From a virus (Duplodnaviria; Caudoviricetes): a stretch of 64,000 nt of DNA. A program made the position numbers and the translations under genes. Shown in pieces: positions 3,501 to 48,650 of the stretch. The first letter of the stretch is position 1. Every line of letters begins with the position of its first letter. The stretch is taken from the IMG/VR virus record IMGVR_UViG_3300013137_001132, positions 650-64,649 of that record. One strand, given 5' to 3'. The notes below the pieces were generated by a model. It was not told the DNA's origin and did no database searches. It saw only the letters and a program-made list of their open reading frames with translations.

Positions 3501-5010
3501 TGGTCTCCTCCAGCGTCATCTGCGACTGTGCGCCGCTATTGAAGTTCGGCCCCACGCCCGTGATATAGGCATCGGCACTGGCGATGATCGCCTGCTGTAC
3601 CGTGCCGCCGCCCACCGGCGTCGCGCTGGGTGTCCAGGTGCGCGTTGCCGTTGGCCCACCCGATGTGGCGGTCGCCGTGCGGGTGCGCGTGGGCGTGTTC
3701 GTGTAGGTGGGTGTCGAGGTCGGCCCGCCCGGCGTATTCGTCGGCGTGCGCGTGAACGTGGGCACGGGCGTGCCAATCACCGGCGTTGGAATGGCTTTGT
3801 AGAGATTGTAGTTTGCCTGTAAGGTTGGCACAAACCACGATAGGTAAGCCTGCGCGTCCGGCTGCATGGACGATGTTACACAGGCCGCTGAGGTACGATA
3901 CTGCGCAGCCTGCTGAAACTCGTAGATGTCCGGCGCGGCATTATGCCCATTCTCCCACAGAATGCGTGTCTGATCGTCATAACGGTCGAAAAGAGTGTAG
4001 TATCCCTGGCAGTTGCCACGATCATCACCCCAGCAATTCTTTTTCAACCAGAAGGCTTTCCCATACTTTGCCAGGGCGTACTGTGTGGGGCGCTCCGAGA
4101 CGCCACCTCGCAAAGGGTTGGTAAAGTTGACATCAAAGCAGCCCGGATGTCCCGCAGCATTGTTCAGGCCAGACCCTACCTGCAAGATAAGTGGCGTGGC
4201 GATGAAGTGCGACCGGTATAGGTCTGTTATCTGCTTAACCTGCTCCGAGATGTAATAGCACGATTTCTCGTTCCACGCGTAGCCGTCAGTGTCTGTGTAT
4301 GGCTGTGTCAGACTACCCAGTGTGACGCCCTTGCCGGAGGCGATCATAGGGCGCACGTCAGTTTTGCCCTCTTCACAACCCTCGGTCTGACACCAGTTAA
4401 GTTCACCATAGTCGCCAATGCTCAGGTGAATTGCCACAACGCCTGGGTTGTTGTCATACCGTTCTGCCATCTCCGCGATCAGTTCATCCCAATACTCCAT
4501 GAACAACGGAGAGAAAATGTTCACGCGCCCGTTGGGATACGCGGAGGAACCCGTATATCCCGCTGCGTCGAATGCTTGGATTGTCCATTGAGGGATAACT
4601 TGATTGCTGTTAGGCTCGCTATGCGTAACCTGAAGAATAACCTTATTCGACGCGTTTGTTTTAGCCACCGCTGCGTCGAGGGCGTTCCAATTGTACACGC
4701 CGCGCTGTGGCTCTATTTCGCTCCAATAGACATTAGGATACCCCCAGGTCGTATTGTATAAGCCAGGCGAAAAGGCTTGACACATTCCCCAATACCCAGG
4801 GTTGCTGGGCTGTTTGAACGGCACCCGCGTCGCCGTTTGCGCCGGCAGCAACTGCGGCCCCTGAATCGTCGGCGGGATCGTCGGCTTTACGATGGGTGCC
4901 GGACGCGTCAACTGGCTGAGCAGCACGATGCCACCGGCCAGCAGCGCCAGGAAGACGATTGCAAGGACTACGCGTACGCGAGGTCGTGCCATGTTACTCC
5001 ATCGCTCCAT
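589..5010 (-). CDS. 1473-aa multidomain surface-type protein: N-terminal TM/signal, glycoside-hydrolase-like barrel (GH42/GH-A-like), three DNRLRE/CBM96-like domains, lamin-tail domain, Thr/Pro linkers
   Basis: Hydrophobic N-terminus; WSEIEPQRGVYNWNALD; ADAYI/ADTFL/YDTRI followed by FDLS/FPLT/FNLS; C-terminal VLNEVM...DWNGDG...QWIEIYN; many TPT runs. Confidence 0.7.
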   Translation of the reverse strand: MERWSNMARPRVRVVLAIVFLALLAGGIVLLSQLTRPAPIVKPTIPPTIQGPQLLPAQTATRVPFKQPSNPGYWGMCQAFSPGLYNTTWGYPNVYWSEIEPQRGVYNWNALDAAVAKTNASNKVILQVTHSEPNSNQVIPQWTIQAFDAAGYTGSSAYPNGRVNIFSPLFMEYWDELIAEMAERYDNNPGVVAIHLSIGDYGELNWCQTEGCEEGKTDVRPMIASGKGVTLGSLTQPYTDTDGYAWNEKSCYYISEQVKQITDLYRSHFIATPLILQVGSGLNNAAGHPGCFDVNFTNPLRGGVSERPTQYALAKYGKAFWLKKNCWGDDRGNCQGYYTLFDRYDDQTRILWENGHNAAPDIYEFQQAAQYRTSAACVTSSMQPDAQAYLSWFVPTLQANYNLYKAIPTPVIGTPVPTFTRTPTNTPGGPTSTPTYTNTPTRTRTATATSGGPTATRTWTPSATPVGGGTVQQAIIASADAYITGVGPNFNSGAQSQMTLEETNIRRGVINFDLSGIPAYASISNATLQVYATDNSVPATQFNVSIYALTNPAWTEMGVTWNKYDGINYWATAGGDYGEIPWGAMNIEAAGTYTVDVTSLVVSWLNGSTTQAGVELIGYSAISQTVHLATKEQADYHVWPQLIVTYRAPTPTPTVTTGGPTYTHTPTSTSTHTPTATATATGGGPTVTNTPAPTGTFPILTVVATADTFLNAAAAATPQGALLEVDFDSVRNRKPVLLFPLTGITNTTIYSASLHMYMYNTTAPAGTPAVGVSIARVKKAGNLAQMTWNQYATGSAWDIAGCVGVNDCAQVKSGLSLSSTPSWTSWDVTDLVKTWANGSANNYGLVVRADQRTPTAIYRFRSIESTPGYGAYLSVANATWTPTATNTPAATSTPTYVTVSITDTYDTRIDAGNPITNYETSGYLALQVASGAIQRETILKFNLSAYPNASIAGATLYIYQYYHNGVLITGTAVIRRVLQAMSADANVTWNNYAAASAWSIAGGLNRDVDTSSEVYGTPVAISASTVGTWLTWDVKPAIQTQVAGTNNGLILDRTDTNDSDDRFGSVEDATITPVAGATKSAPYLVLQLATATPTFTLTPTPTETPTSTPTLTPTPTPLVHLAITADTGGTPAPGGYITYTLSYSAENDTALNLYPYSQFAAQMTPVAGTPVPTYESGAIYVFPVSGALTETTQTVYAIGEIDPALPYGPITLTHTLGLWACDNCFASDVTSVITFTNNTPTPTATPTPPTATPTNTSTFTRTPTWTPTNTRTITPTKTPTGSATPTSTNTVPPASTATQTRTPTSTYTPSPTRTPTETPYYNFVLNEVMMLPMLVDWNGDGAIDTHDQWIEIYNKDGGTMGFYRYYVKLTNVGDTVTNTHTYTYYIPSGVNVGGNDFVIIWPYYAFRNDISNTAYISLYNRSGVLMDSLYIPGATPEYTYQRRPDGDMTATPQWWAWPSFGVGNMTPTPTATP

Positions 5011-35178: not shown

Positions 35179-37342
35179 AAGATTCACCACTTCTTCACCT
35201 ATGAGATTAGGTTCAGCCAGGCGGTAGGTGAGCCGCTTTTCGGGGATCAACCTAGACTGAACCACAAACACAAAGAAAGGAGAAAACTTCACATGACCAT
35301 CGAGATAGGCCGCGAGTTGGCCGAACGGAGGGCACCATGACTTGGGAAAAGCGTAACGAACACTGGTCATCGCCTGAAACGCTTGTAACCGATCTCGCGC
35401 TCGACGGCGTGGTCGCGGTGCGGGTATTCGACAACATCAGTCGCCGTTACATGGCTAACGACATCTTCCGCGCCATCAACACTCACGATACACTCGTGGC
35501 GGCTTGCCGAAATGCGCTGCGGCTGTTGCCCCGTGACAGTACCGCATATAACAAGATGCGCGCCGCGCTCGTCGGGGCCACGGAGGGATGATATGTACGG
35601 AGAGTTCATCGTAAAACCGCAAGACGATTTCTACATCATCGAGAACCAGAGCGGACAGCGTATCGCCCTGTGCTGGAATGAGCGCATCGCGCAGGGCGTG
35701 GCTCGCGCGGTCAACGCGCACGGACATCTGGCGCATCTCATTCGGCGCATCGTGGACATATCCGAGAACGGCAAGCCGGGCACACGCTTCCAGCGCATCA
35801 ACGCGGCCATCGAAGACGCGATGCCGGCGCTCATTGAGGCTGGTGTCGTTGACGCTGCGGCCACGGAGGAACAGAAATGAGCACTGCGAGGCAAGAAGAG
35901 TTGACGGCACGACTTGAAGCAACGTTCGAACGCGCAAGAGAACTGGCTGACATCGTGACTCAAATGTGTGGCGCGCCGGCGACGAATGCGGGCCTCCGCG
36001 ACGCGCTCGATGCCATTGCAATTTTGGCAGACAGCGCGCAGGGTGATTGGGCCGGCGTTCAGATACCCTATGCGCCAGAATGGACGCATGGATACAAGAA
36101 TATTGCAGAATTCGCCCGCGCCGCCGCGCTCGCCGCGGCCACAGGAGAGACGCCATGAAACTGCTGCAAGAATACCGCATCACCCGCCGGCTGTATGCCG
36201 ATGACACCGACGGGCGCGACCCCGGAACCCATGCGCGATGCAGAGTCTACATGGAACTACTCGACCGCTACCCCGCAGACATTGTGCGCCGGCATCTACC
36301 ACGCATCGCCGCAATACTGGCACGTAATAAGTAAGGGCTATGGCCCGGAAAGGAATCACATGAACCAGATTGACTTCGAGGAGGTGACCGCCGCTGGTTG
36401 CGGACTGGCCTTCGGTCTCACAATCATGGTGGTCGCAGCCTTTGTGCTGTGGCTATTACTCAGGGTGATAGCATGAGGTACACAGCAATCACAGATCAGG
36501 AATGGGTCGCGAAAGCGATTTGTGACATCGCCCGCGGCAAAGGCTGCGGGGAATCCTTCGACGTGCTTCTAGCGCGCGGCTACGAAGTAATCTGTGACGC
36601 ACTCGCCGAACTCAATCAAGCGATGTCAGACCGCTCTTCGGGGATCAACCTAGACTGAACCACAAATACAAAGAAAGGGGAAGGGAACATGCTACAATCC
36701 GAGTTCGAAGCAAGGCTCGCAATGATCCCCGCCATCATCGAGGGGCGGGTCAACACGGAATACACCGTCGTACAACGCGAGCTGTGCAAGCTCATCATCG
36801 AAGAGGCTTTCGCGCTCTTGGAGAAGGTCAACAGTGGCAAAGACGGCAGTCTATAGTGTCATCATCCTGTTCGTGCTGGCGATTGTTCTCGTGCTGCGCC
36901 TTCCCGGTACGGCGACACCAAATGGACACACTTGGGAATCGTGGCATCCAGAAGTCCTGTTCCTGACGCATCCAGATTCTGAGTTCGCCTGTAAGTACAA
37001 TAACGGCGCGCAGTCTCTTTGGTTGCAGTGCGATCCGGAACAGCCTGGATGCCCACCCAAGTTCGGCGGCGCGTTCCTGACGCTAGGCGGCCTGCTCATC
37101 ACGGCCTTCATGGGCACCGCCCTATACTGGCTCAATGCCATCAAACGTGGTGGCTACGAAAAGGAAGAATGACATGCCAGACGCTATCTGCCTCTTCAGC
37201 CTCGGAGTGTTCGCCATCGCCGTCGGGCTGTTGCTGCTGTGTGACAGAGACAAGACGGCCAGAAGGAACGGCCTGTTATCACTCGCCTGCGGCATCGTAA
37301 TCGCGGGCGGCACCATCTGGGCTATGCTATAGGAGCTACCAT

Positions 37343-42537: not shown

Positions 42538-43106
42538 GTAAACGTTACCGTTGGAATTAAAGTACCCTGACACGATGCCCCTCCGCGACAACTCTCCGCT
42601 AAAAGAGGAGCTAGGGCAGGGGCAGAAGCGGAGGTTCAACCCTTTTCGCGCCGTCGCGCTAGCCCCGGCATTATGTATGGAAAAGCAACGCTTGGTGTAG
42701 GCGATACACTAAAACTGGCGATGTCCGACCGGGACACTAACACGCCGTAACCAGTTCCACGTCGCTAATTCCTGAAATTGGCGGCTGCGGGGGATTTCAC
42801 CCCGCTCATCTGCCTATCTGCGGTGGCTGGCCGTCAGCGCCGCCGGCTTATAGCACATCTTCCTTCGCAGTTGACAATAACCAGAAATCACGGCAGGCAT
42901 TCCGCGCCCGTTTGCGCTCCTGGCGATTGCGTGATCGTTTATCTGGTACACACTCACATTCATGGATGCGCGCTCGTATGAACGGTATCCAGTCATTGAC
43001 GCGGAACTTGGCCGCCGGTTTTATAGTCTAGTGATTTGGGGGCGTCCAGGTCGCTCAAGATGCTGGCGCGCCGACCATCCAGCTATACCCTCGATGCGCC
43101 CCACAG

Positions 43107-43179
43107 GGTAGACGGCGGGATTCGAACCCGCATTAACTGGTTCCACAAACCAGCGCCATGCCATTAGGCTACGTCCACC
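43107..43179 (-). tRNA. tRNA-His (GUG), CCA not encoded
   Basis: 8-bp acceptor with G-1:C73 (GGTGGACG/CGTCTACC), anticodon arm CTGGT-TTGTGGA-ACCAG, T arm GCGGG-TTCGAAT-CCCGC. Confidence 0.93.
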
Positions 43180-44506: not shown

Positions 44507-44922
44507 ATCCCTTCCTTTGTTACCCTTAAGTTATGGCGCCGCCAAGTGGAAGGGTCTACCACCTTTCGGGAGCTACCCTAGACAGCGCCACCATATTTTA
44601 TTGTTAACGCAGGCCCATCCACCGCTGTATCCCTGCCCCGTAGGTTTATTACCTACACAGCTTCTTCTTCTCCATCATAGGGCTTGAGGGCGTCAACTAA
44701 TATGGTATGTTTACGCCACTGCATATCATTCCACCGCACGCGATGTTCGTCGTTCACGAGAAAGCGCAACCATTCAGGCCACCCTTCTCGCTTGCCGTAT
44801 TTCGATTGACACGCGGCGCATAAGACTTCGCGTCGGCTGCTCGTCGCTCGTTGGCACACTACGCAATGGTACAATGATATGCCCCCTACTCTCTATACGG
44901 ATTTAGAGGGCCAAAAGTCAAG

Positions 44923-45687: not shown

Positions 45688-46030
45688 TGCATGCGGCGCA
45701 AGCGCCGGCTATGGTGCAGTATCCGAAAACAAATGCCTCTGGTCTATCCATCACTGCCCTCCCGAAGAAGGGGCACTCCCGCGTGCCGTGCTTTGACCAG
45801 TCCGCGACCGGCACATCGGCCGGCAGGTCAAGGGCGTTGCGCAACGCTTGGATCGCTGTCTCTGGGTCAACCGCGATTTCCCCCGGCCGGCAGAATATCC
45901 AGTGCTGGTCATCATAGCCAACCAGCGCCCGCGCCGCCGTCTCGATTCGCTCAGCTCGTGTCATGGCTCATTCTCCCTTCTCGCATGGCGCGAGCAGCCC
46001 CCAACCCGCGCCATGCCAATACGCAAGTGG

Positions 46031-47437
46031 CTACGAATCTTCGTCCTGTGATACGCTAATCCCCTCAAGCGCCGCGATGTACTCCAAGAAGTGCTGGCTC
46101 CATCCCGCGATCTCAGCAGTCCATACCCCATCGTAGTTCACGCCATGCGTATGTGCTCCCACGTCGATGATGTAGTTGCGCTCACCGAACGGGGCAGGAA
46201 CGCGCTTGCCGGGATAGTCGCAGTCCTGGGAGTCAGAGAACACCATGATACGAGCGGGCTTGCCTTCGCTATGTGCCTTGATGTATTCAAGGCACTGTCT
46301 CGTGAAGATGCCGCCGCCGCCCATACTGTTGAGCGCGTTCTGGATCTGATCTGCCAGAGCAAACCCGCGATAGGATTTGAGTTGCACCGTGTTGTGTAGA
46401 TGCCTGAAGTCGTCCCCGGCCGTCACCCAAATGTCCACGTGCTCGCACATTTCAGCGGCCAGCATCGCCATCGCCGCAGCAGCATCTAGGCGCGTCATGT
46501 CGCTCTTGTCACTGAGCGCGGCCCGCATGGAACCAGACACATCCACGACGACTACAGAACGTCCGGGGAGTTTTTGCTTCATGGAAAGGCCACGCAGCAT
46601 CAGGTCTTCCAACTCACGCGTCCACTCCGGCGCGTATCTTGCAGCCGCCATGTAATTGACAGGAAGAAGCCACTTGGGGTTGATCGTCTCAAAGCCGCGC
46701 TCGATGACCCCGCGGCTGACTTTCGCTTCCTTCATGTTACGCAAGTTCCGCACGAAGGCCAGCGCACCCAGCTTCTTCTCGCCGATAAGCCGTTCCCACG
46801 TCGCCTTCTTATCTGCGCCAGAGGACAACGCGACCTCCCAAGTGTCCGGCGTCGGAAGCGTATTCTCCGCGATCTGCTTGTACAGTTCTTCGCGTTCCTG
46901 GGTGGGCTTCGGGTGCACCATAAAGAGCACGTCCCTCAGCTTAACCGCCGCGTCGTCCTTCTTGTACTTCCCGAACTCGTAGGCGTTGAACTGCCCGAAC
47001 GCCACGGCGAGTCCGAGCTTGACCTGCTTTGCCAGCGGACATTTGCCGTCACGCCAATAGAGGGCCAAAAAATCGCTCAGTTGATCGGCCCGCGTGATGA
47101 TCTTGGGGAGAAGTCCCCCCAACAGTATGCAGTATTCTGGAAGCCGGGCCATCTCGCGCGCGATGAACAGCGGGACGTGACGAAGCCCCTGATTACAACG
47201 CGCCTCAATGGCGATGTCGAACACCGTGCCGGCAGGAACTTGCGGAATCAGATTCTTAATCTCATCCGCGACGAAGACGCCTGTCTGGTAATACTGATCT
47301 TCCCATAACAGATTTGCCATGACCGCGCGACGCAAAAGGGACTCGGCATCCTGCTTGGCTGCGAATGTTCCGTAGCCGCCAGCTAACCGAGTCCCCCTGT
47401 CCAACCGATAGTCCTTCGCCTTCTCGTTGACCTTCAT
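46031..47437 (-). CDS. rsr: Ro60/TROVE-vWA RNA-binding protein
   Basis: LLWEDQYY, RADQLSDFLA, FNAYEFGKY, KLRDVLFMVHPKP, PDTWEVALS, LGALAFVRNLRN, vWA MIDAS DVSGSM, FSDSQ. Confidence 0.92.
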   Translation of the reverse strand: MKVNEKAKDYRLDRGTRLAGGYGTFAAKQDAESLLRRAVMANLLWEDQYYQTGVFVADEIKNLIPQVPAGTVFDIAIEARCNQGLRHVPLFIAREMARLPEYCILLGGLLPKIITRADQLSDFLALYWRDGKCPLAKQVKLGLAVAFGQFNAYEFGKYKKDDAAVKLRDVLFMVHPKPTQEREELYKQIAENTLPTPDTWEVALSSGADKKATWERLIGEKKLGALAFVRNLRNMKEAKVSRGVIERGFETINPKWLLPVNYMAAARYAPEWTRELEDLMLRGLSMKQKLPGRSVVVVDVSGSMRAALSDKSDMTRLDAAAAMAMLAAEMCEHVDIWVTAGDDFRHLHNTVQLKSYRGFALADQIQNALNSMGGGGIFTRQCLEYIKAHSEGKPARIMVFSDSQDCDYPGKRVPAPFGERNYIIDVGAHTHGVNYDGVWTAEIAGWSQHFLEYIAALEGISVSQDEDS

Positions 47438-47455
47438 GTTTTTCTCCTTTCAGTA

Positions 47456-47727
47456 CCGGGGGAACGAACAGATCGGGTTTGTACTTTCCGAAGAAGTATC
47501 CCAATCCTACACCACCCGGACGATACGCTCATTAAGCTGGGGAACGGACGGAAAGAGTTACGGTTAGCACCCTACCCGAAGGCTAGGGAAGCCATCTTGC
47601 AGAAAGAAGTATCTCTTTCCTACACCACCAGCTTGTTGTTAAAGATGTCGGGGAACAAGCGGCGACGGGTATGTTTTCGCTTATCATTTACAGTGATATG
47701 AAGTACCCGTAACCTACGCCACCGACA
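47456..47727 (-). ncRNA. Array of three Y-RNA-like units (47727-47646, 47634-47534, 47519-47456)
   Basis: Each unit: closing stem, GGTGGYGTAGG, covarying stem, TACTTC, variable insert, stem, GTTCCCC; lies between a promoter and the TROVE gene. Confidence 0.75.
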
Positions 47728-47732
47728 ATATC

Positions 47733-47761
47733 ATTGTACCACGGGGAGCATTAGAAGTCAA
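47733..47761 (-). promoter_or_regulatory. Sigma70 promoter for the RNA array and TROVE gene
   Basis: TTGACT-N17-TACAAT with extended TG; predicted start at about 47727, the first base of the first unit. Confidence 0.8.
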
Positions 47762-47802
47762 GGGGTTGCGGTAAACAGAACCTTAAATTTTCATCACCCC
47801 CC

Positions 47803-47831
47803 TTGACTTTTGTATGACATTATTATAGAAT
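47803..47831 (+). promoter_or_regulatory. Divergent sigma70 promoter for the recombination/replication operon
   Basis: TTGACT-N17-TAGAAT followed by GGAGG and ATG 47849. Confidence 0.8.
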
Positions 47832-48650
47832 GAGTGCGGAGGTGAGAAATGGAGCCGACTTACGGAATAGTAACCCATGCGGATTCAAGTTCGATTATAG
47901 TTAATGACCTGCACGACATCCCGCCAGTCGGGACACACGTGCTGGTCTCGTGGACAGACGACCACGTTTGTCCGAAGTTGACCCAGGAACAGCAGGAACG
48001 CGCCAGTCTGGGAATCGTGGAGGGCCAGTGGATTATGCAGCTTCTTGGAAGGGATGGTTTGTGGTGCGATTCGTTTGACATCGTGGCATGTCCGTTCTGT
48101 GGGGAGAAGTTGCCATGAGACACACGATCAAGGGCCGGGTCGAAAGCGATGAGCAAGGCCGCTATATCTCGTCAGGGGAAATGCCCGACACTGGTACAGA
48201 GGTTGAGGTTTCTTGGGACGAACCCAAAGAGCCGCACAACTACAAGTACGAGCCTTCGGGAAGCAAAATACAGCCTATCTGTTATGCGGGGGGCCGTTCA
48301 TATCCCGTGGTACTCTGTCCGTGGTGTGGAGAGAGGCTATCATGAGAAGGCTGAAGATCGGTGGGAGCAGAATCAACGCAGAGCACATCGTTGCCGCTAA
48401 CGGAAACATCCAGTATGTAGACATCGTCTTTGCGAACAATGGATTGCTCACGCTTACCGACGAAGAAGCTGAAGCCTTCCTGTGGTGGTGGGACACCTAC
48501 CCCATTACCAGGAGCACTTTATGCATTGATGTGGTTGAGGCATATCGCGCAGTGAAGAAGCCAGACGTGACGCCAGGCGATTCAGACGACGACGACATTA
48601 CCCTAGAGGTGGATTGGTGTGATGGAATGGGAGATCAATAGGAGAAATCA

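What the first reader, a model, noticed from the sequence alone, without database searches (positions are those of the whole stretch)
46031..47761. Phage Ro60/TROVE gene led by an array of Y-RNA-like units with a fixed scaffold and variable payloads
Seen: a near-consensus promoter whose predicted start coincides with the first of three units (82, 101 and 64 nt). Each unit has its own closing stem (TGTCGG/CCGACA, AAGCTGG/CCAGCTT, CCGG/CCGG). Each also has conserved GGTGGYGTAGG and GTTCCCC flanking an internal loop, a second stem whose sequence differs but still pairs, a conserved TACTTC and a different insert. The last unit ends 18 nt before the TROVE start codon. Established: Ro60/Rsr binds Y RNAs encoded next to it, and bacterial YrlA RNAs mimic tRNA. 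Inference: a modular phage RNP in which Ro60 displays interchangeable RNA payloads, possibly as decoys against anticodon nucleases or as tethers for RNA repair/decay enzymes. The scaffold is not the canonical Y-RNA GGUCCGA stem.
Basis: partly seen in the sequence, partly recalled or inferred. Interest (0 to 1): 0.9.

Follow-up and report, generated by a model that had tools for sequence, protein, structure and literature searches.

The report
Phage Ro60 gene with three Y-RNAs
A lake-water phage carries a gene for the RNA-binding ring protein Ro60 preceded by three small RNAs that share one docking stem but differ in their middle parts: a divergent, so far uncatalogued version of the known Ro60/Y-RNA partnership.

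Summary
On the minus strand a sigma70-like promoter (47761-47733) is followed by three structured units (47728-47645, 47634-47534, 47521-47454) and then by a 468-aa Ro60/Rsr gene (47437-46031).

A covariance model built from relatives finds exactly these three sites in the 64-kb window. In 100 related TROVE loci it finds 168 sites, all on the TROVE strand.

The shared scaffold is a closing stem with a bulged U, then UGGYGUAG, a covarying second stem and UACUUC, and on the 3' side GUUCC. It is a 1-2-letter variant of the bacterial Y-RNA motif GNCGAAN0-1G. In relatives the same scaffold carries the YrlA-type tRNA-like T/acceptor/D domain. Rfam's YrlA model hits these only below threshold (33-50 bits against a cut-off of 69).

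None of the window's three units has that domain, and none matches any Rfam family. They are therefore Y RNAs, a known kind, of a new variant.

The payloads do vary across the family. They include a permuted tRNA-like domain, a whole tRNA, and hairpins that look like anticodon arms. Unit 1 has a 5-bp stem with loop CUGUAAA, identical to the loop of phage tRNA-Tyr genes in two related loci.

Ro60 binding, RNA processing and function remain untested.

The parts
47733..47761 (-). Sigma70-like promoter TTGACT-17-TACAAT with an extended -10 TG. The predicted start falls at the 5' end of unit 1.
   Evidence: 10 of 12 matches. The same design, a promoter-like site ending 4-12 nt before the first unit, occurs in 17 of 118 first units of relatives, against 28 of 1600 random positions.
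47645..47728 (-). Y RNA unit 1. It has a closing stem, a bulged U, GG/CC, the GGCGUAG internal loop, stem 2 and UACUUC. These are followed by an anticodon-arm-like hairpin (47698-47682; 5 bp, loop CUGUAAA at 47693-47687) and an A-rich linker.
   Evidence: R1 62.9 bits (this unit was in the seed). The minimum-free-energy fold shows the hairpin. The loop is identical to that of the tRNA-Tyr genes in L048 and L051.
47534..47634 (-). Y RNA unit 2. It has the same scaffold. The payload is a long irregular hairpin capped by the pyrimidine loop UCCCU, plus a small second hairpin. It has no T or D arm.
   Evidence: R1 60.7 bits, E 2e-14, and not in the seed. Fold z = -3.2. No similar payload was found in 106 loci.
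47454..47521 (-). Y RNA unit 3, the minimal form. The payload is a short hairpin in which UACUUC pairs with GAAAGUA around a UUCG loop.
   Evidence: R1 56.3 bits (in the seed). Fold (z = -0.5).
47444..47448 (-). Shine-Dalgarno AGGAG of the Ro60 gene, 7 nt after unit 3's closing stem. No terminator lies between the units and the gene.
   Evidence: Sequence. No terminator-like site was found in 45900-48000.
46031..47437 (-). Ro60/Rsr homologue (TROVE HEAT ring plus vWA domain), 468 aa, with an invariant DxSxS (MIDAS) motif.
   Evidence: (D299, S301 and S303 are invariant in 30 sequences).

Best explanation
The three units are Y RNAs: small non-coding RNAs that dock on the phage's own Ro60 protein.

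Proposed mechanism (inferred):
- They are transcribed with the Ro60 gene from one promoter as a single precursor. Host RNases cut in the 11-14-nt spacers to give unit-length RNAs.
- Each RNA binds the outer face of the Ro60 ring through the conserved bulged helix. This helix is the closing stem, a bulged U, GG/CC, and the GGYGUAG / CGNYUGUU internal loop.
- The variable middle parts give each RNP a different property. They could gate the Ro60 cavity, or tether Ro60 to a host partner such as PNPase, as shown for D. radiodurans, Salmonella and Thermus phage phiLo.

Shown here: the homology and conserved structure of the scaffold, its exclusive association with TROVE genes on the same strand, and that the protein is a Ro60. 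Inferred, not shown: transcription, processing, binding and partner recruitment.
For: (1) Structure. In 45 short units from the window and relatives, the 16 scaffold pairs are 92.3% paired, against 61% in shuffles and 42-53% with slid partners. Fifteen of the 16 pairs show compensatory changes.

(2) Specificity.
- R1 gives 3 hits in the window, all at the locus.
- It gives 168 hits at E<=0.01 in 100 related loci (552 kb). All are on the TROVE strand and none on the other. At most 43 are seed sequences.
- 80 of 100 loci have at least one hit. Nine of the 20 loci without a hit have no DNA upstream of a truncated gene.
- There are 11 further hits, all on the + strand, in 6 metagenome loci.
- In five whole large phage records (1.59 Mb) there are 14 hits, all on the TROVE strand. 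Eleven lie within 2.5 kb of the gene and three lie 5.7-8.9 kb downstream.

(3) Link to known Y RNAs.
- Longer units with the same scaffold carry T arm, closed acceptor stem and D arm in YrlA order. For 36 pairs, 94.2% are paired against 70% in shuffles; T arm 100%, acceptor stem 97%, D arm 98.5%.
- These units match Rfam YrlA RF02553 at 32.9-50.1 bits: 14 hits in 11 loci, and 44.7 bits in L067.
- GGYGWAG sits where YrlA has GNCGAAN0-1G, and UUAC fits YrlA's conserved YUAY (Chen 2014 passages; Wang 2018 preprint passages).

(4) Precedent.
- M. smegmatis YrlA and YrlB lie upstream of rsr and are processed from one precursor (Chen 2014 passage).
- phiLo Ro60 binds two upstream Y-like RNAs and PNPase (abstract and passages).

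(5) The protein is a Ro60.
Against: - No unit matches the published motif GNCGAAN0-1G exactly.
- No unit matches any Rfam family, even at E<=10.
- None of the three has the tRNA-like domain. Chen 2014 found such a domain in at least one Y RNA of every species examined.
- There is no expression data: no RNA run was listed.
- No terminator or known processing site separates the units from the coding region. They could therefore remain part of the mRNA leader.
- U3 does not fold better than shuffled sequence (z = -0.5).
- The seed units were picked with a pattern that demanded the motifs and at least 4 of 5 closing pairs. The closing-stem statistics are therefore partly circular. Stem 2 was not selected for.
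- Many loci are close relatives of one another, so counts are not independent events.
Confidence: 0.8

Rival explanations
1. The three structures act mainly in cis as the leader of the Ro60 mRNA. Ro60 binds its own leader, in particular unit 3, whose stem ends 7 nt before the Shine-Dalgarno. Binding would shut off its own translation or alter mRNA decay. Under this reading no free RNAs are needed.
For: - No terminator-like site lies between the units and the start codon.
- U3 ends 18 nt before the ATG.
- In many relatives the last unit also ends 17-35 nt before the TROVE start, for example L002, L003, L041, L045, L065, L068, L069, L070 and L076.
Against: - 69 of 168 related units lie downstream of the TROVE gene.
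- In L067 and L074 a hairpin followed by a T run separates units from the gene (read by eye).
- These points show that the module works away from the leader.
- Autoregulation and free Y RNAs are not mutually exclusive.
Confidence: 0.1
2. The payloads are tRNA anticodon-arm mimics. They would be displayed on Ro60 as decoys, sensors or substrates for host enzymes that cut or modify anticodon loops.
For: - U1 has a 5-bp stem and the loop CUGUAAA. Two tRNA-Tyr genes in related phage loci have the same loop on a 5-bp stem.
- Across the family, 16 of 112 units have a hairpin of at least 4 bp with a 7-nt loop carrying U at position 2, a purine at 6 and A at 7, right after UACUUC. The figure is 15 of 5600 for shuffles and 16 of 2630 for other ACTT sites.
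- Real tRNAs in the same loci show this signature in 66 of 93 cases.
- ARAGORN reads this hairpin as the anticodon arm in 7 units.
Against: - Only one of the window's three units has such a hairpin.
- The hairpin may simply be inherited from a tRNA ancestor. This fits the dimeric-tRNA origin model quoted in the Wang 2018 preprint.
- No anticodon nuclease, RNA ligase or RtcB was found in the 64.6 kb held.
- Units are related to one another, so the counts overstate independent events.
Confidence: 0.1
3. The units are decaying tRNA-derived debris or a local repeat with no function of their own.
For: - The TROVE genes of relatives sit among tRNA and tmRNA genes. After setting aside 5 loci whose only calls lie inside Y units, 48 of 96 loci have at least one ARAGORN call.
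- The payloads have no detectable relatives.
Against: - Both stems show compensatory changes across dozens of divergent phages.
- The motifs are invariant, and the strand bias is 168 to 0.
Confidence: 0.02

Closest known systems
YrlA (Rfam RF02553; S. Typhimurium, M. smegmatis, mycobacteriophages; Chen et al. 2014)
   Same: - Encoded beside Ro60 on the same strand.
- The 5' and 3' ends pair into a stem.
- A purine-rich 5' motif (GGYGWAG here, GNCGAAN0-1G there) sits opposite a U-rich 3' strand (UUGUUCC here; UuGucGcc in the Rfam consensus printed).
- A second stem is followed by YUAY (UUAC here).
- Relatives of the window's units add T arm, closed acceptor stem and D arm in the same permuted order.
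   Different: - The window's three units have no T or D arm and no RF02553 hit at E<=10.
- Even the tRNA-like relatives score 33-50 bits against the cut-off of 69.
- Two Watson-Crick pairs of the YrlA docking helix are replaced by Y-U and G-U oppositions.
- Many relatives carry an extra 5-bp/7-nt hairpin between UACUUC and the variable loop. The Wang 2018 preprint states that S. Typhimurium YrlA lacks an anticodon loop.
YrlB / Yrn2-type short Y RNAs (S. Typhimurium, M. smegmatis, D. radiodurans)
   Same: - They are second and third Ro60-bound RNAs without a full tRNA-like domain.
[quoted passage not shown] U2's main hairpin ends in UCCCU.
[quoted passage not shown]
   Different: - No sequence similarity could be tested, because no Rfam model for them matched.
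- In those species they accompany a tRNA-like YrlA. In this phage none was found.
Thermus phage phiLo Ro60 with Yrl1 and Yrl2 (NAR 2025, PMC12135203)
   Same: - A phage Ro60 with Y-like RNAs in the upstream non-coding region.
- It is the nearest solved protein: E 1.2e-13 and the top Foldseek hits.
- Binding to the RNAs and to host PNPase was shown there (abstract and passages).
   Different: - Only 21% protein identity.
- The phiLo RNAs were defined by a CGAA motif. The window's units have GUAG at that place.
- There are three units here rather than two.
Animal Y RNAs (GGUCCGA bulged helix)
   Same: - A terminal stem with a single bulged pyrimidine next to G-C pairs serves as the Ro60 docking site.
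- A variable internal module is present.
- There are two to four paralogues per genome.
   Different: - The sequence motif differs.
- Animal Y RNAs are Pol III genes not linked to the Ro60 gene.
- Rfam family Y_RNA gave no hit.

Membership tests
Ro60/Rsr protein (TROVE + vWA) | TROVE (HEAT-repeat ring) domain | tested here: met
   - Pfam PF05731: E 1.1e-9, 38.4 bits against a cut-off of 23, but covering only residues 194-243.
- phmmer to phiLo Ro60 over residues 15-458, E 1.2e-13.
- The Foldseek top 13 are all Ro60/Rsr, TM 0.56-0.66.
Ro60/Rsr protein (TROVE + vWA) | C-terminal vWA domain with a MIDAS DxSxS motif | tested here: met
   - VWA_2 scores 24.1 bits, below its cut-off of 27.
- D299, S301 and S303 are invariant in 30 aligned homologues.
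- The model shows an alpha/beta fold from residue 290.
Bacterial Y RNA | Encoded within a few kb of the Ro60 gene on the same strand | tested here: met
   - The units lie 16-290 nt upstream of the gene on the same strand.
- In the family, 168 of 168 hits are on the TROVE strand.
Bacterial Y RNA | The ends pair into a stem carrying the Ro60-binding motif GNCGAAN0-1G | tested here: not met
   - The stem is present and covaries.
- The motif reads GGCGUAG (U1) and GGUGUAG (U2, U3), which is 1-2 letters off.
- An exact match occurs in 4 of 114 related units and in none of the window's three.
Bacterial Y RNA | Bound by Ro60 and dependent on it for accumulation | not testable with these tools
   No RNA run was listed. 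The complex predictor takes proteins only.
YrlA (RF02553) | tRNA-like module: T arm, closed acceptor stem and D arm | tested here: not met
   - No RF02553 hit at E<=10 in 47300-47900.
- The only weak hits in the record are 17.1 bits, overlapping tRNA-His, and 11.6 bits.
- ARAGORN finds only tRNA-His in the window.
YrlB/Yrn2-type Y RNA | [quoted passage not shown] | tested here: inconclusive
   U2's predicted hairpin ends in UCCCU. The definition is descriptive (passage), and no model exists to score it.
tRNA | Cloverleaf recognised by tRNA finders | tested here: not met
   Neither ARAGORN nor Rfam tRNA calls any of the three units.

The most novel reading that the evidence does not exclude
This large, mostly phage-borne Ro60 clade may use one docking stem as a chassis for exchangeable tRNA-derived modules. 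Three kinds of payload are seen:
- A whole cloverleaf tRNA (L048, L050).
- A permuted T/acceptor/D body that still keeps an anticodon-arm-like hairpin.
- That hairpin alone. Window unit 1 has a 5-bp stem with loop CUGUAAA, letter for letter the anticodon loop of phage tRNA-Tyr genes in two related loci.

Under this reading the Ro60 RNP would present anticodon-loop look-alikes of varied 'anticodons' to host enzymes that cleave or modify tRNA anticodon loops. It would act as a decoy or sensor in phage-host conflict. The hairpins would also be direct evidence for the proposed origin of Y RNAs from tRNA dimers.
Probability: 0.12. Interest if true: 0.85.

Novelty: new variant of a known kind. Interest (0 to 1): 0.55.

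Why it matters
Ro60 and its Y RNAs are conserved from bacteria to humans, yet their bacterial and phage roles are known from only a few systems. This locus belongs to a very large family. In one search, 7943 of the 8000 candidates that were scored passed E<=0.001, and the best 120 hits were 58-81% identical proteins of 429-495 aa.

Standard annotation is blind to the family's Y RNAs, because the Rfam YrlA model either misses them or scores them below threshold. The scaffold consensus and model R1 make these RNAs findable. They also define which nucleotides to mutate in binding tests.

Three departures from the published picture may interest specialists:
- A phage whose three Y RNAs all lack the tRNA-like domain.
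- Scaffolds that carry a whole tRNA.
- Anticodon-arm-like hairpins.

A phage Ro60-like protein has recently been reported to counter a bacterial defence system (Bas63 gp130 against ppl; preprint passage). A tractable RNA partner would therefore help mechanistic work.

Tried and rejected
- Rfam at gathering thresholds on the whole window gave only tRNA-His and three int-alpA hits. At E<=10 on 47300-47900 it gave only a chance snoR14 hit.
- Searching viral contigs with the single protein returned no confirmed relative. The alignment A1 was used instead.
- Payload homology: blastn-short of the three units against 106 loci matched only scaffold segments of 13-26 nt.
- Antisense or target search of the payloads against the window gave nothing longer than 11 exact or 15 near-exact bases, E>=0.2.
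- Expression: no RNA holder was listed.
- Laying contigs of four DNA runs on 47300-47900 showed no differences from the window where contigs covered it; only X1, the possible source sample, spans the three units.
- RtcB (PF01139) and RNA ligase (PF09414) were not found in the 64.6-kb record, which is 71% complete. This does not show that the phage lacks them.
- A first loose descriptor scan was too unspecific and was replaced.
- The 2020 Annual Review on bacterial Ro60 (PMC10870794) is not held.
- The supplements of Chen 2014, which list the 254 species and 22 phages, were not seen. They might already include members of this clade.
- U2's payload could not be assigned to any known module.
Full report
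WHAT IS THERE

The window is nearly all of a 64.6-kb IMG/VR virus record, estimated 71% complete. DNA holders are lake-water metagenomes.

On the minus strand an ORF at 47437-46031 encodes a 468-aa protein. The evidence that it is a Ro60/Rsr homologue is as follows:
- Pfam TROVE gives E 1.1e-9. VWA_2 gives 24.1 bits, below its cut-off of 27.
- PHROG 850 'RNA-binding protein' gives E 7e-29.
- The nearest solved sequence is Thermus phage phiLo Ro60 (9KOP/9L5Y), E 1.2e-13 over residues 15-458.
- An AlphaFold model built on 30 homologues has pLDDT 79. Its 13 best Foldseek matches are all Ro60/Rsr structures: phiLo, Xenopus, human and D. radiodurans.
- D299, S301 and S303, the MIDAS DxSxS motif, are invariant in those 30 sequences.

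Between this gene and a divergently transcribed block lie 324 bases that carry the finding. The divergent block holds RecT-like and SSB genes on the plus strand.

- The promoter TTGACT-17-TACAAT has a TG before the -10 hexamer (10 of 12 matches). It ends at 47733. A start about 7 nt downstream falls on the first bases of unit 1.
- The three units, their closing stems, the shared GGTGGYGTAGG, TACTTC and GTTCCCC, and the differing but paired second stems are all as described.
- Unit 3's stem ends 18 nt before the ATG, with AGGAG in between.
- No terminator-like site is found in 45900-48000.

WHAT IT IS

I collected 62 loci from viral contigs and 39 from genome contigs that encode relatives of the protein. 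Six more came from metagenome contigs. Their flanks show the same scaffold again and again.

I aligned 45 short units: two from the window and 43 from relatives. They had been picked with a pattern requiring the motifs and at least 4 of 5 closing pairs. On this alignment the 16 proposed pairs give these results:
- 92.3% are paired, against 61.0% in shuffles (0 of 500 shuffles reach the observed value).
- With slid partners the figure is 42-53%.
- 15 of 16 pairs show compensatory changes.
- Stem 2 was not part of the selection pattern. It is 90.9% paired, with changes on both sides in all 7 pairs.

The covariance model R1 was then searched in four settings:
- In the window it finds exactly three sites, at 62.9, 60.7 and 56.3 bits. 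Unit 2 was not in the seed.
- In 100 related loci (551,907 bases, both strands) it finds 168 sites at E<=0.01. All 168 are on the TROVE strand. At most 43 are there by construction.
- Eighty of 100 loci have at least one site. Nine of the 20 without one have no DNA upstream of a truncated gene.
- Ninety-nine sites lie upstream of the gene and 69 downstream.
- In five whole large phage records (1.59 Mb) there are 14 sites, all on the TROVE strand. Eleven lie within 2.5 kb of the gene and three lie 5.7-8.9 kb downstream.

Many loci are close relatives or duplicates, for example L024/L026, L074/L075 and L017/L079. These counts are therefore not independent events.

LINK TO KNOWN Y RNAS

By simple motif tests, 27 of the 168 related sites carry both a T-arm and a D-arm motif. 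Twenty-two carry a T arm only, 4 a D arm only, and 115 neither.

An alignment of 33 long units supports the full YrlA architecture. In order it has the scaffold, UACUUC, a hairpin, a 5-nt variable loop, the T arm, a closed acceptor stem, the D arm, and the scaffold's 3' strand. Over 36 pairs, 94.2% are paired against 70.1% in shuffles. The T arm is 100% paired, the acceptor stem 97% and the D arm 98.5%.

Rfam's YrlA model hits these long units only below its gathering score of 69 bits:
- 44.7 bits in L067.
- 14 hits of 32.9-50.1 bits in 11 loci.
- No hit at the gathering threshold in 14 loci.

The published bacterial Ro60-binding motif is GNCGAAN0-1G, near the 5' end, followed further on by a conserved YUAY (Chen 2014, passages read). 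In this family the same place reads GGYGUA in 49 of 114 units that have TGGYG, and GGUGAA in 11. It matches GNCGAAN0-1G exactly in 4, and in none of the window's three units. UUAC fits YUAY.

The scaffold is therefore a variant of the bacterial Y-RNA docking module. It is not a new kind of structure.

The window's own three units have no T or D arm:
- They give no RF02553 hit at E<=10.
- The record as a whole gives only chance-level YrlA hits, one of which overlaps tRNA-His.

Chen 2014 reported that each characterised species has at least one tRNA-like Y RNA. This phage, like several relatives with only plain units, departs from that. The missing 29% of the genome leaves this point open.

HOW IT PROBABLY WORKS

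By homology and precedent, the three RNAs are made as one precursor together with the Ro60 mRNA. [quoted passage not shown] The RNAs would then be trimmed to unit length and bound by Ro60 through the bulged helix.

The payloads would then differentiate the RNPs:
- Unit 2's long hairpin with a pyrimidine-rich end loop recalls the YrlB/Yrn2 type.
- Unit 3 is a minimal form.
- Unit 1 carries an anticodon-arm-like hairpin and an A-rich single strand.

Tethering to PNPase is the documented effector mechanism in D. radiodurans and Salmonella, and binding to host PNPase was shown in vitro for phiLo. All of this is inference for the present locus.

A cis role is a rival, or an addition. Ro60 bound to unit 3 could mask the adjacent Shine-Dalgarno. 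The 69 downstream copies in relatives show that the module does not need to be a leader.

A promoter-like site ending 4-12 nt before the first unit of a cluster occurs in 17 of 118 cases. The comparison figures are 28 of 1600 random positions and 1 of 46 inner units. This fits primary transcripts that begin at the first Y RNA.

PAYLOAD VARIETY AND A LEAD

Directly after UACUUC many units have a hairpin with a 7-nt loop. A hairpin of at least 4 bp with a 7-nt loop is the best hairpin in:
- 16 of 45 T-arm units and 12 of 67 plain units.
- 186 of 2250 and 220 of 3350 shuffles.

Loops with U at position 2, a purine at 6 and A at 7 make up:
- 10 of 16 and 6 of 12 of those unit loops.
- 6 of 186 and 9 of 220 in shuffles, and 16 of 217 at other ACTT sites.
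- 66 of 93 tRNA genes called in the same loci.

ARAGORN itself calls the 5' halves of seven units as tRNAs, using this hairpin as the anticodon arm. These are L003, L032, L044, L064, L065, L067 and L086. Rfam's tRNA model does not accept them at threshold.

In L048 and L050 the scaffold encloses a complete cloverleaf tRNA-Gln.

Window unit 1's hairpin (47698-47682) has a 5-bp stem and the loop CUGUAAA. The two tRNA-Tyr genes called in L048 and L051 have exactly this loop on 5-bp stems.

The Wang 2018 preprint states that S. Typhimurium YrlA lacks an anticodon loop. It also quotes a model in which YrlA arose from a tRNA dimer (passages). The hairpins seen here fit that origin.

Whether they are relics or working mimics cannot be decided here. 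My paper searches for Ro60, phage, Y RNA and anticodon together turned up no description of such hairpins. The Chen 2014 figures and supplements were not seen.

VERDICT

This is a real, well-supported feature of a known kind: Y RNAs beside a phage Ro60. It is a new sequence variant that Rfam does not capture, and it has an unusual payload set. Its claim of a non-canonical scaffold needs tempering, and its functional ideas remain untested.

Noticed in passing
L032:2054-2448 (between Y-RNA units and the TROVE start at 2501): Six copies of a repeat of about 36-47 nt sit at 66-73-nt spacing, separated by variable spacers of about 25-30 nt. The arrangement looks like a CRISPR-like mini-array. The repeat contains GTTCGTTCCC, which resembles the 3' strand of the Y-RNA scaffold.
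   Followed up: partly
L009, L018, L025, L048, L050, L052, L059 (+ strand); L100 (- strand): Phage-encoded tmRNA genes lie within about 2.5 kb of the TROVE gene in 8 of 96 loci scanned. They are often directly upstream of it.
   Followed up: no
L048:722-858 and L050:1928-2064: An R1-positive scaffold (21.9 and 26.8 bits) encloses a complete, non-permuted tRNA-Gln(UUG) cloverleaf called by ARAGORN.
   Followed up: partly
L011, L018, L023, L027, L033 at about 3938-4010; L038 at 3897-3969: A tRNA-Lys(UUU) or tRNA-Arg(UCU) gene starts about 37-41 nt after the TROVE stop. In sister loci (L008, L010, L012) a short Y-RNA unit occupies this place.
   Followed up: no
window 42596-42669, 35198-35262, 44523-44588 (all - strand): Three matches to the Rfam int-alpA RNA family score above its gathering score (40.2-44.4 bits against 35.8). 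They are on the same strand as the Ro60 cassette and tRNA-His.
   Followed up: no
window 47803-47831 (+): A second near-consensus promoter, TTGACT-17-TAGAAT, points the other way, towards small ORFs and then the RecT-like and SSB genes. The Y-RNA/Ro60 cassette therefore starts at a divergent promoter region.
   Followed up: partly
window 43106-43178 (-): A tRNA-His(GUG) gene lies 2.9 kb downstream of the Ro60 gene on the same strand. Its anticodon arm has a 5-bp stem and the loop UUGUGGA, the same loop signature as unit 1's hairpin.
   Followed up: partly
related loci L003, L032, L044, L064, L065, L067, L086: ARAGORN annotates the 5' halves of tRNA-like Y RNAs as tRNA genes (Pro, Ser, Lys and others). 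Automated phage annotations may therefore list such Y RNAs as tRNAs.
   Followed up: yes
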